A stretch of 64,000 nt of DNA. It comes from Thermodesulfobacteriota bacterium (GTDB lineage Bacteria > Desulfobacterota > Desulfarculia > JACQYL01). Under the pieces are notes generated by a model, which was not told the origin of the DNA, did no database searches, and saw nothing but the letters and a program-made list of their open reading frames with translations. Location of the stretch: assembly GCA_963675595.2 (NCBI GenBank), contig CAXXLZ010000002.1, positions 256,001 through 320,000 on the forward strand, written 5' to 3'. The translations under genes were made by a program, and so were the position numbers. Of the stretch, positions 1,103 through 2,459 are shown piece after piece (position 1 is the first letter of the stretch; each line of letters opens with the position of its first letter).

Positions 1103-1310
1103 GATAACTCCTCTCGTACCCAACCTTGCAGATGCGGCCTTAAAAGGCCGGGCAACTGTACGGGTTATCTCGAGGAAGGACATGACGGCCCAAGCTTCCA
1201 AACGGAGTCCATTTCTCCTGGGGGTCCGGCGGCCTGTCATGTCCGTGACCAACTTTGCGGGTCATGCCGTCTTCCATTAAGTATGAAAGATGGCATGCTA
1301 AATATACAAG
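145..1310 (-). mobile_element. IS110-family (IS621-like) insertion sequence, right end apparently interrupted
   Basis: DEDD transposase plus ~200 nt 5' non-coding leader. The minus-strand left end reads CT-TGTATATT and abuts a G-rich repeat. No TIRs. Confidence 0.85.
1105..1300 (-). ncRNA. Putative IS110 bridge RNA
   Basis: Three stem-loops on the minus strand. Two have internal loops whose sequences match the flanking target (GGACCCCC / TGGAAG) and the element ends (ACAGTTGC / TGCAAG). Confidence 0.75.
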
Positions 1311-2459
1311 GGGGTGCGGGGCATAAGCGCTAACTTACGCCTTTTGTTTTGGTGAGGTTTATGGTACCATTGCCGCCAAAGGAGGTGGCAATGGAGCGTC
1401 TCGTTTTTTCCGAGGAAATGGAAGACTGGGAAGTTCTCCAGGGTTTTCTTCCCGATGGCTGGCAATCCAAAGCAAGGGAACTTGGTGCCGTTGTCAGATA
1501 CCGTAAGTTCGTGGACGCCGAAGGTCTGTTGCGAACGCTTCTGATCCATCTGGCGGAAGGTTGCTCACTTCGGCTGACGGCGGCCAAAGCCAGGTTCGGC
1601 AACATTACGTCGATTTCCGACGTAGCTCTCCTAAAACGACTGAATAAATGCGGAGAGTGGTTTCGGTGGATGGCCTTAGGGGTCATGGAGAAATGGTTTC
1701 GAAAGCTGCCCGCCGTTGTTTTTGGAGAGAATTCACGCATCAGGTTGATCGATGCCTCCACCATTCAAGAACCTGGAAGTACCGGAACGACTTGGAGGGT
1801 CCATTATTCCATACAATTGCCTTCGCTGCGCTGCGACGAAGTCTATGTAACAGACCCCAAGATCGGAGAATCCTTCACCAATTTCAAAGTCCATGGCGGT
1901 GAACTTCTTGTAGCGGATAGAGCCTATTGCACACCAAGAGGAATTCACCATGTCATAGACAACGGCGGCGACGTCCTGGTTCGAATGAAACACCGTGTCG
2001 CCATGGTGGACAAGCAAGGGGAACGATTCCAATTACTCCCTCATCTAAGGACGTTACGTGTAAATAAGCTTGGCGACTGGGATGCATTCGTTCCATTTGA
2101 ACAACGCTTGGTTGCAGGTAGAATCTGTGCCATCAAGAAGAGCAAAGACGCCACTGAAAAAGCTCGTAAAGCGATAGAAAAAGAGGCGAGGAAAAAAGGT
2201 CGCCAAGTTACTCCGGACACCCTCGAAGCGGCGGCCTACATATTTGTTTTCACAACATTGGGCCGTGAAATCTCGCCCTCTCAGGTCCTCGAGATGTACC
2301 GAGGTCGATGGCAAATTGAACTCGCTTTCAAGCGTCTAAAGTCCATTCTCGGTTTAGGCCATCTTAGAAAGACCGACATCGAAGGAGCCAAGGCCTGGAT
2401 CCATGGGAAACTACTGGTGGCTTTCTTAGTGGAGGCCATGATCGCCGCAGGCGAATCTT

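What the first reader, a model, noticed from the sequence alone, without database searches (positions are those of the whole stretch)
1103..1321. Readable IS110 bridge RNA programmed against the genome's own palindromic repeat
Seen on the minus strand: a 5' hairpin; then stem GGACATGAC/GTCATGTCC enclosing GGACCCCC (1227-1220) and TGGAAG (1200-1195) around an inner GGAG/CTCC stem; then stem ACCC/GGGT enclosing ACAGTTGC (1159-1152) and TGCAAG (1130-1125) around GGCCTT/AAGGCC. The actual junction is GCACCCC-CT-TGTA. Known: IS621-type bridge RNAs have target and donor loops of this layout with a CT core. Inference: target is GGACCCC-CT-TCCA and donor is ACAGTTG-CT-TGTA. GGGGGTCCGG also occurs in the repeat copy at 48610, so the guide fits the repeat family. 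This is a natural recombinase/guide pair with a deducible specificity.
Basis: partly seen in the sequence, partly recalled or inferred. Interest (0 to 1): 0.7.

Follow-up and report, generated by a model that had tools for sequence, protein, structure and literature searches.

The report
Bridge RNA of a repeat-targeting IS110 element
This is a normal, apparently active IS110-type jumping gene whose own guide ("bridge") RNA can be read from the sequence and correctly predicts where its seven copies sit, mostly next to a hairpin repeat of the host genome; it is a good example of a mechanism described in 2024, not a new one.

Summary
Every motif is at the stated coordinates.

- **The element.** The minus strand of window 1..1310, plus 26 nt beyond the window start, is a 1,335-bp IS110-family insertion sequence. 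It has 7 copies in this genome.
- **The RNA.** Its left end encodes a ~180-nt RNA with the published IS621 bridge-RNA layout: a 5' hairpin, a target loop and a donor loop.
- **Donor loop.** It matches the element's own ends, ACAGTTG-CT-TGTAT. It shows the same discontiguous, G·T-wobble pairing pattern described for IS621.
- **Target loop.** It predicts CGGACCC-CT-TCCAAA, or GGACCCC-CT-TCCAAA one C longer. The 7 reconstructed insertion sites differ from this at 0, 1, 1, 1, 1, 2 and 3 of 15 positions. None of the 712,661 CT sites in the present genome is within 1 mismatch.
- **Repeat family.** Four insertions lie directly 3' of the hairpin of a REP-like repeat family. A fifth, the window copy, lies in the tail of a related member.
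- **Relatives.** The stems covary in 66 distinct relatives, and the relatives' loops match their own flanks.

REP-targeting IS110 elements with bridge RNAs are already well described, so this is a new member of a known kind. RNA expression and circular intermediates could not be tested.

The parts
1..1310 (-). IS110-family insertion sequence, 1,335 bp counting one CT core. The left end is at 1310. The right end (…ACAGTTG-CT) lies 26 nt beyond the window start, at genome C2:255974.
   Evidence: Seven copies with identical ends and different flanks. Five copies are identical to the window copy, one has 1 difference and one has at least 10. Contigs of other sequencing runs break at the same ends.
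1309..1310 (-). CT core dinucleotide at the left junction. It is followed by the right donor TGTAT (1308-1304).
   Evidence: CT is present at both junctions of all 7 copies.
1301..1306 (-). TATATT, the -10 half of a promoter that is complete only in the circularised element. TTGACA in the right end lies 17 nt upstream of it across the junction.
   Evidence: The junction was computed in script. Integrated copies have no -35-like hexamer at that distance. Eight of 10 relatives examined carry TTGAC at the same place in their right ends. IS621 is reported to rebuild a sigma-70-like promoter in the same way.
1263..1297 (-). 5' stem-loop of the bridge RNA. The predicted transcript runs from about 1294 to about 1118, roughly 177 nt.
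   Evidence: Folds. The start is inferred from the -10 box and is not shown.
1178..1244 (-). Target-binding loop module. Outer stem 1244-1236/1186-1178 plus GGCC 1234-1231/1190-1187. Left target guide CGGACCCCC 1228-1220. Inner stem-loop 1218-1204. Right target guide (GUU)UGGAAG 1203-1195. Handshake base C 1194.
   Evidence: All 9 outer-stem pairs have compensatory changes. The guides match the 7 reconstructed targets. The same rule holds in relatives.
1118..1165 (-). Donor-binding loop module. Outer stem ACCC 1165-1162/GGGT 1121-1118. Left donor guide ACAGUUGC 1159-1152. Inner stem-loop 1149-1136. Right donor guide AUCUGCAAG 1133-1125. Handshake base G 1124.
   Evidence: The left donor guide equals the last 7 nt of the right end plus the first core base. 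The right donor guide pairs with CT-TGTAT through one G·T wobble and two skipped bases, the pattern reported for IS621. The module is conserved in relatives.
134..1102 (-). IS110-family (DEDD/RuvC-like plus Tnp domain) recombinase, 322 aa, with a GAGGAG ribosome-binding site at 1113-1108.
   Evidence: Pfam PF01548 at 2.5e-25 and PF02371 at 1.4e-18. Alignment to 8wt6_A IS621 transposase at E = 4e-38 over residues 7-305. D11, E55, D97, D100 and S235 align with the IS621 catalytic residues.
1311..1321 (-). Left flank of the window copy (…CCCCGCACCCC), the left half of its target. It lies between the IS110 element and the end of an IS4-like element that starts at 1322.

Best explanation
Window 1103-1310 (minus strand) is the left end of an IS621-like IS110-family insertion sequence and encodes its bridge RNA.

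The proposed mechanism is as follows.
1. The element excises as a circle. Joining the right and left ends creates a TTGACA-17 nt-TATATT promoter.
2. That promoter transcribes a ~177-nt RNA made of a 5' hairpin and two stem/internal-loop/stem modules.
3. The second module holds the circle junction. [quoted passage not shown] 4. The first module holds a genomic site. [quoted passage not shown] 5. The 322-aa DEDD/Ser recombinase exchanges strands at the CT core.
6. The bases just 3' of each right guide (C, then G) can pair with position 7 of the other DNA (donor G7, target C7) after strand exchange, as the published handshake rule requires.

The preferred genomic site lies immediately 3' of the hairpin of a REP-like repeat family.

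What is shown: the element, its ends, its 7 sites, the loop-to-DNA matches, the covarying stems, and the conserved catalytic residues. What is inferred by homology with IS621: transcription, circle formation, and RNA-guided recombination itself.
For: - **Protein.** Pfam IS110 domains are present. The alignment to the IS621 transposase structure has E = 4e-38, with D11, E55, D97, D100 and S235 conserved.
- **Element.** There are 7 copies of 1,335 bp with CT at both ends and unrelated outer flanks. Six of 7 are identical or differ by 1 base, which indicates recent activity.
- **Donor.** The left donor guide matches the right end at 8 of 8 bases. The right donor guide pairs with CT-TGTAT as in IS621, including the G·T wobble at donor position 12 and two unpaired bases.
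- **Target.** The 15-nt prediction against the 7 reconstructed sites gives 0, 1, 1, 1, 1, 2 and 3 mismatches, taking the better of two registers. Among 712,661 CT sites in the present genome, 0 are at 1 mismatch or fewer, 54 at 2 and 382 at 3.
- **Structure.** 91.6% of cells pair on 24 relatives, with 0 of 500 shuffles as high. 93.2% pair on 66 distinct sequences, with 20 of 23 pairs compensatory. A covariance model built from relatives finds exactly the 7 copies in this genome.
- **Programmability in the clade.** In 15 of 21 relatives with an identified right end, revcomp(CT+RT5) occurs 7/7 in their own 3' loop, against 9 of 420 non-own pairings. In 6 of 17 relatives with an identified left end, LT7+C matches at 7/8 or better in their own 5' loop, against 0 of 272 non-own pairings. 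L041 has a changed right donor guide (GCUAG) together with a changed left end (CTAGTAT).
- **Promoter.** It is split across the junction, and its -35 half is conserved in 8 of 10 relatives' right ends.
Against: - No direct evidence of the RNA, the circle or recombination.
- The junction 15-mer is absent from the assembly, and contigs of 4 runs show no junction. Neither could be expected to show a rare circle.
- The left target guide does not complement the second core base in either register (C or A where U is expected). Durrant et al. report that pairing to both strands of the CT core is strongly preferred for IS621.
- The register is ambiguous because of a C run. Four sites fit CGGACCC-CC and two fit GGACCCC-CA.
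- One site (CGATCCC-CT-TCCAAG) has 3 mismatches.
- In relatives the left-guide match is looser than the right-guide match: 6 of 17 score only 4-5 of 8.
- Rfam has no family that matches, so there is no curated model to compare against.
Confidence: 0.9

Rival explanations
1. Target choice is not set by the RNA guides alone. The GC-rich hairpin just 5' of the target, whose 3' arm runs into the left target, is a second structural determinant, as proposed for ISPpu10 ('sequence-structure dual match'). This adds to the best explanation rather than replacing it.
For: Four of 7 sites have a 13-15-bp hairpin ending in …CCCCGGA, which overlaps the left target (z = -4.0 to -7.5 against shuffles). A fifth site has a 5-bp CCGGA/TCCGG stem at the same place. 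The ISPpu10 preprint reports a conserved 5' stem-loop at its targets and functional dependence on it (abstract and section 7 read).
Against: At least 2 of 7 sites lack such a hairpin: C2:1017342 has none, and the weak stem at C2:2631577 is no better than shuffles. The hairpin may be only a passenger, because the repeat family supplies most copies of the matching sequence. Many family members with hairpins but a CA or TT in place of CT are unoccupied.
Confidence: 0.3
2. The proper left target guide is the reader's register, GGACCCC-CA. The intended target would then be GGACCCC-CT-TCCA, and the four CGGACCC-CT repeat sites would be slipped or off-target events.
For: Relative L066 has the same …CCCCAGG ending, and its single known flank fits this register better (5 of 7 against 3 of 7). 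Two of 7 sites here (GGACCCC-CT and GCACCCC-CT) fit it with 1 and 2 mismatches.
Against: Four of 7 sites fit the other register with 0-1 mismatch and this one with 3-4 mismatches. In most relatives a one-base linker separates the guide from the inner stem (…CU-U-GG), which corresponds to CGGACCC-CC-A-GG here.
Confidence: 0.25
3. The region is only a structured 5' leader or DNA-level end of the element, serving as a protein-binding site or for translational control. On this view the matches to the ends and flanks do not reflect RNA guiding.
For: No RNA evidence was obtained. The left donor guide repeats the right-end sequence, which could in principle be a DNA repeat bound by protein.
Against: Compensatory changes in 20 of 23 stem pairs point to selection on RNA structure. 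The loops covary with unrelated host flanks in relatives, which a fixed protein site would not do. The protein is homologous to the structurally characterised RNA-guided IS621 recombinase.
Confidence: 0.03

Closest known systems
IS621 (E. coli) bridge recombinase and bridge RNA (Durrant et al. 2024, PMC11208160; Hiraizumi et al. 2024, PMC11208158; passages read)
   Same: - Same protein family, with conserved DEDD and Ser catalytic residues.
- The RNA is encoded in the left end upstream of the recombinase, at about 177 nt.
- 5' hairpin followed by a target loop and then a donor loop.
- The left guides have the sense of the top strand, and the right guides are the reverse complement of core plus right arm.
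- CT core.
- The right donor arm TGTAT is identical.
- The right donor guide pairs 9 nt with 7 nt, with a G·T wobble at donor position 12.
- The left donor guide pairs only through the first core base.
- The handshake base pairs with position 7 of the other DNA.
- The promoter is split across the circle junction.
- The natural targets are repeat hairpins.
   Different: - The similarity is distant (E = 4e-38 over residues 7-305; identity not computed), and the host is different.
- The target is different: CGGACCC-CT-TCCAAA.
- The left target guide has C (or A) instead of U opposite the second core base.
- A C run allows two registers.
- The natural right target guide is longer, with up to 6-7 nt beyond the core.
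- Nothing has been tested experimentally here.
ISPpu9 / ISPpu10 of Pseudomonas putida (PMC12288879, search listing only; bioRxiv 10.64898/2026.03.19.712850, abstract and section 7 read)
   Same: IS110-family elements with several identical copies, all or most inserted into REP-type intergenic hairpin repeats. A GC-rich stem-loop lies 5' of the target and overlaps the left target.
   Different: The repeat family and the guides are different.
The 80 relatives fetched here (39-59% protein identity; MAGs of Chloroflexota, Gemmatimonadota, Pseudomonadota, Desulfomonilaceae and others)
   Same: The bridge RNA is alignable. The donor loop is nearly invariant (…CCCGAACAGTTGC… / …GCAAGG…GGG). Left ends are CTTGTAT, and TTGAC is present in the right ends.
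   Different: The target loops differ from element to element and track each element's own flanks.

Membership tests
IS110-family insertion sequence (IS110/IS621-like subgroup) | Recombinase with an N-terminal DEDD (RuvC-like) domain and a C-terminal Tnp domain carrying a catalytic Ser | tested here: met
   PF01548 at 2.5e-25 and PF02371 at 1.4e-18. D11, E55, D97, D100 and S235 align to the IS621 catalytic residues in 8wt6_A.
IS110-family insertion sequence (IS110/IS621-like subgroup) | Element bounded by a 2-nt core (CT) present at both junctions, with no longer target duplication | tested here: met
   All 7 of 7 copies read flank-CT-TGTATATT…ACAGTTG-CT-flank. The length is 1,335 bp counting one CT.
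Bridge RNA (IS621 type) | Non-coding RNA in the left end, upstream of the recombinase: a 5' stem-loop followed by two stem/internal-loop/stem-loop modules | tested here: met
   Folds. Covariation: 15 of 21 pairs, 0 of 500 shuffles, and 20 of 23 pairs on 66 distinct sequences (alignment fitted to the model).
Bridge RNA (IS621 type) | [quoted passage not shown] | tested here: met
   ACAGUUGC equals the right end's ACAGTTG plus C. AUCUGCAAG pairs with CTTGTAT through one G·T wobble and 2 skipped bases, as reported for IS621.
Bridge RNA (IS621 type) | First loop complementary to the insertion sites: left target guide and right target guide | tested here: met
   The 7 sites lie at 0-3 mismatches of 15. 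No other CT site in the genome (0 of 712,661) is within 1 mismatch. Caveat: the second core base is not complemented by the left target guide.
Bridge RNA (IS621 type) | Handshake guides: the base 3' of the right target guide pairs with donor position 7, and the base 3' of the right donor guide pairs with target position 7. Neither pairs with its own DNA. | tested here: met
   C1194 can pair with donor G7 and not with target C7. G1124 can pair with target C7 and not with donor G7. This comes from sequence inspection against the rule. The second handshake position does not pair.
Bridge RNA (IS621 type) | [quoted passage not shown] | tested here: met
   TTGACA-17 nt-TATATT exists only across the junction. 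This is a consensus match only; transcription is not shown.
Bridge RNA (IS621 type) | The RNA is made, the circle exists, and guide changes redirect recombination | not testable with these tools
   These need RNA-seq or 5'-RACE, junction PCR and a plasmid assay.
IS1111 subgroup (guide RNA encoded 3' of the recombinase; recalled, not from a call) | Guide RNA located in the right end, downstream of the gene | tested here: not met
   The RNA lies upstream of the gene (1297-1118, with the ATG at 1102). The covariance model hits only that place in each copy.

The most novel reading that the evidence does not exclude
This genome may be a natural end-state of bridge-RNA targeting.

- Every site within one mismatch of the guide is already occupied.
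- The remaining insertions use a slipped register of a C-run guide, a G·T wobble, or 2-3 mismatches.
- The left target guide works without complementing the second core base.
- The same REP-like repeat family is also the landing site of a second IS110 lineage (8 copies, inside the hairpin) and of an IS4-like element.

Together these would suggest that the repeat family acts as a shared 'safe harbour' to which several mobile elements, RNA-guided or not, have converged.
Probability: 0.25. Interest if true: 0.4.

Novelty: new member of a known kind. Interest (0 to 1): 0.25.

Why it matters
It is a clean, fully readable natural recombinase/guide pair from an environmental bacterium. Its specificity can be deduced from sequence and is verified by seven insertion sites.

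That makes it a usable extra orthologue for bridge-recombinase engineering. It is also a small natural data set on tolerated mismatches: register slip, G·T wobble, and an uncomplemented second core base.

It does not change the understanding of the mechanism. REP-targeting by IS110 elements and the bridge-RNA rules are already published.

Tried and rejected
- **Rfam.** There was no match to any family in window 1-3000 at E ≤ 1. At gathering thresholds the whole window gave only a fluoride riboswitch. No curated bridge-RNA model was therefore available for comparison.
- **Sequencing runs.** No RNA holder was listed. All 4 runs laid were contigs. They break at the element's ends and show no right-end/left-end junction. 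This says nothing about expression or circles.
- **Circle junction in the assembly.** The 15-mer gave 0 hits, as expected for a finished assembly.
- **Extra insertion sites elsewhere.** A 30-nt left-end pattern found 0 matches in metagenome contigs. The left end was found in 0 of 60 relatives' genomes searched, some of them incomplete. The test of the target rule therefore rests on 7 sites plus the relatives' own sites.
- **Direct link to IS621 DNA.** A Salmonella relative (L108) used as a probe against E. coli genomes found an 'IS110 family RNA-guided transposase' (L124). Its upstream region is hit by my model at 54.3 bits. The protein is not IS621 (E = 1.7e-30 to 8wt6_A), so this adds one more member only.
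- **First fold.** The fold of 1321-1103 included flank that is not part of the RNA and mispaired the donor module. It was refolded from 1297.
- **MAFFT columns.** They placed the window's inner target stem one column off. This was corrected through the covariance model.

Full report
**What is there**

On the minus strand a 322-aa ORF runs from the ATG at 1102 to 134. It carries the two Pfam domains of IS110-family transposases: DEDD_Tnp_IS110 at 2.5e-25 and Transposase_20 at 1.4e-18. It aligns to the solved IS621 transposase (8wt6_A) at E = 4e-38 over residues 7-305. D11, E55, D97, D100 and S235 sit opposite the residues that Hiraizumi et al. name as catalytic (D11, E60, D102, D105, S241; passages).

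A search of the window's own genome with window 1-1500 found 7 full copies. Aligning their edges gives one element: flank-CT-TGTATATTTAGC…GAACACAGTTG-CT-flank. It is 1,335 bp counting one CT. The left end is at window 1310. The right end lies 26 nt before the window's first base.

Five copies are identical to the window copy. One differs at 1 position. One differs at 10 or more positions, all downstream of the RNA region. Logan contigs of four public runs break at the same two ends, including a 1,343-nt repeat contig.

**The observation**

Folded from 1297 to 1115, the strand gives these features (z = -3.51, 1 of 200 shuffles as good):
- a 5' hairpin at 1297-1263;
- a 9-bp stem plus GGCC/GGCC enclosing an internal loop with an inner GGAG/CUCC hairpin;
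- an ACCC/GGGU stem enclosing a second internal loop with an inner GGCCUU/AAGGCC hairpin.

Rfam holds no family that matches.

**Is it an RNA structure?**

I fetched 80 loci encoding relatives of the transposase at 39-59% identity and aligned 24 upstream regions.
- RNAalifold predicted 21 pairs, and 15 have compensatory changes.
- On that alignment 91.6% of cells pair, against 74.5% in shuffles (0 of 500 as high) and 32-42% when the partners are slid by 1-3 columns.
- A covariance model built from it finds exactly the 7 copies in this genome. It does not hit the 13 other IS110-family genes there.
- The model gives 83 hits in 81 sources. Among the 66 distinct sequences, 93.2% of cells pair, and 20 of 23 pairs, including the inner target-loop stem, show changes on both sides (0 of 500 shuffles for four of the five measures, 2 of 500 for the fifth). 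That alignment is fitted to the model.

**Do the loops read the DNA?**

The published rules (Durrant et al. 2024 and Hiraizumi et al. 2024, passages read) are these:
- The left guides have the sense of the top strand (7 nt plus core).
- The right guides are the reverse complement of core plus right arm.
- In IS621 the left donor guide pairs only through the first core base.
- The right donor guide pairs 9 nt discontiguously with 7 nt, with a G·T pair at donor position 12 and two flipped bases.
- The base after each right guide pairs with position 7 of the other DNA after strand exchange.

*Donor.* ACAGUUGC (1159-1152) equals the right end's ACAGTTG plus C. AUCUGCAAG (1133-1125) pairs with CT-TGTAT in exactly the IS621 pattern: A-U, two bases skipped, G·T, then C-A-A-G. 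The right donor arm TGTAT is the same as the IS621 positions 10-14 quoted.

*Handshake.* C1194 can pair with donor G7 but not with target C7. G1124 can pair with target C7 but not with donor G7.

*Target.* The 5' side of the first loop reads G-C-CGGACCCCC-A. The 3' side reads G-UUUGGAAG-C-UUG. This predicts CGGACCC-CT-TCCAAA or, one C longer, GGACCCC-CT-TCCAAA.

The seven reconstructed sites are listed below:

| Site | Copies |
|---|---|
| CGGACCC-CT-TCCAAA | 1 |
| CGGACCC-CT-TCCCAA | 2 |
| CGGACCC-CT-TCCTAA | 1 |
| GGACCCC-CT-TCCGAA | 1 |
| GCACCCC-CT-TTCAAA (window copy; its T pairs with the guide G as a wobble) | 1 |
| CGATCCC-CT-TCCAAG | 1 |

These give 0, 1, 1, 1, 1, 2 and 3 mismatches of 15, taking the better register. 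In the same script, the 712,661 CT sites of the present genome (both strands) include none at 1 mismatch or fewer, 54 at 2 and 382 at 3. The exact 12-mer CGGACCCCTTCC has 0 unoccupied copies.

Its target string is right in content but one base out of register for 4 of 7 sites. In neither register does the left target guide complement the T of the core (it has C or A). Relatives L088 (G) and L066 (A) also lack a U there.

**The rule holds in relatives**

- For 21 of the 24 aligned relatives a right end could be identified. In 15 of these 21, revcomp(CT + 5 nt of right flank) occurs 7/7 in the element's own 3' loop, against 9 of 420 pairings with another element's loop.
- For 17 of 24 a left end could be identified. 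In 6 of these, LT7+C matches at 7/8 or better in the element's own 5' loop, against 0 of 272 non-own pairings. Six of the 17 score only 4-5.
- L041 carries a changed right donor guide (GCUAG) together with a changed left end (CTAGTAT).

**Promoter**

Joining right end to left end in a script gives TTGACA-17 nt-TATATT. The -35 lies 19 nt before the right end and the -10 at window 1306-1301. In the seven integrated copies the hexamer at the -35 position is unrelated to TTGACA. Eight of 10 relatives' right ends carry TTGAC at the same distance. IS621 is reported to rebuild a sigma-70-like promoter in this way. This is a consensus match. No RNA data could be obtained, and the runs searched are listed under Tried and rejected.

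**The repeat**

Four insertions lie right after a 13-15-bp GC-rich hairpin, …GGGGAAACC-TTTTGAAAA-GGTTTCCCC-GGACCC. This hairpin heads a repeat of up to ~200 nt. An iterated nhmmer search gave 207 hits at E ≤ 1e-3, and 132 of them span the hairpin and target region.

Unoccupied members carry CA, TT or other dinucleotides, or further mismatches, where occupied ones have CT.

The window copy sits 11 nt from the end of an IS4-like element. Its target (CCCCGCACCCC-CT-TTCAAAGC…GGCCTCACCGC…) has the tail typical of a sub-family of the same repeats.

On the minus strand it reads CCGGACCCCC followed by CTGACC. A closer unoccupied site in the window is CTGACCC-CT-TTCAAA at about 48421-48435, with 2 mismatches.

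Two of the seven sites have no convincing hairpin. A hairpin requirement, as proposed for ISPpu10, is therefore possible as a modifier but is not obligatory.

**Comparison and novelty**

In layout, pairing rules, split promoter and choice of repeat hairpins, this is an IS621-type bridge-RNA element. All defining features that can be tested in silico are met (see the membership table).

Durrant et al. analysed 5,511 ncRNA-target pairs. The ISPpu10 preprint states that REP sequences have long been recognised as IS110 targets. The finding is therefore a new member of a known kind.

I made one literature search. I did not look for a name for this element.

The modestly unusual points are the saturation of all near-perfect sites, the two registers allowed by the C run, and the uncomplemented second core base. 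The element was not found in 60 relatives' genomes or in the metagenome contig collection.

**Verdict**

The mechanism is inferred by strong homology with IS621 and is untested at the bench. The biology is ordinary for this class. Interest: 0.25.

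Noticed in passing
window 1322-2459 and 4336-4500+ (+ strand): An IS4-like element (370-aa ORF at 1349-2461, Pfam DDE_Tnp_1) starts 11 nt from the IS110 left end. At least 12 other copies of its end exist. In most of the 12 printed, the end abuts a G/C-run motif such as CCCCGGACCCCC, CCCCGTGCCCCC or GGGGTCCGGGGG, which is the same hairpin-flank motif of the REP-like repeats. This unrelated element therefore seems to use the same landing pad.
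   Followed up: partly
window ~2458-4338 (- strand): A 1.88-kb insertion sequence with a 569-aa transposase (DDE_Tnp_1_6, DDE_Tnp_1, DUF772) interrupts the IS4-like element. At least 15 copies at ≥99.8% identity occur in the genome. The first 4.5 kb of the window is therefore a three-element IS nest.
   Followed up: partly
window 62760-63203 (+); genome-wide: The genome holds 20 matches to PF01548: the 7 copies studied, a second lineage of 5 (one of them in this window), and a third lineage of 8. In at least 5 of 8 copies the third lineage sits inside REP-like hairpins, with left flank …CCGGGGG and right flank GAAACTTTCGAGAAAGTTTCCCCCGG…. Their guide RNAs were not analysed, and my covariance model does not hit them.
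   Followed up: partly
window 27823-27938 (-), 47203-47277 (-), 48388-48464 (+), 49908-49976 (+): These are members of the REP-like repeat family: a GC-rich hairpin, a C-rich tail, CAAAAC/CAAAGC, and a further conserved segment. Genome-wide there are 207 nhmmer hits. The family has no Rfam match, and its function is unknown.
   Followed up: partly
window 20663-20730 (-): Fluoride riboswitch (Rfam RF01734, 45.5 bits against a gathering score of 34, E = 2.1e-9).
   Followed up: no
L053:295-380: In this relative the left flank of the element is identical for about 27 nt to the DNA that encodes its own target-loop 5' side (…CCGGTAGACCGTCTTAGGTC-CT). The element seems to be inserted into the left-target-guide coding DNA of another, upstream copy. 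This would be a half-site self-target.
   Followed up: no
L070:1048-1180 and 2320-2450: Two bridge-RNA model hits lie 1.27 kb apart on one strand in one locus (84.3 and 75.3 bits). This suggests tandem or nested elements.
   Followed up: no
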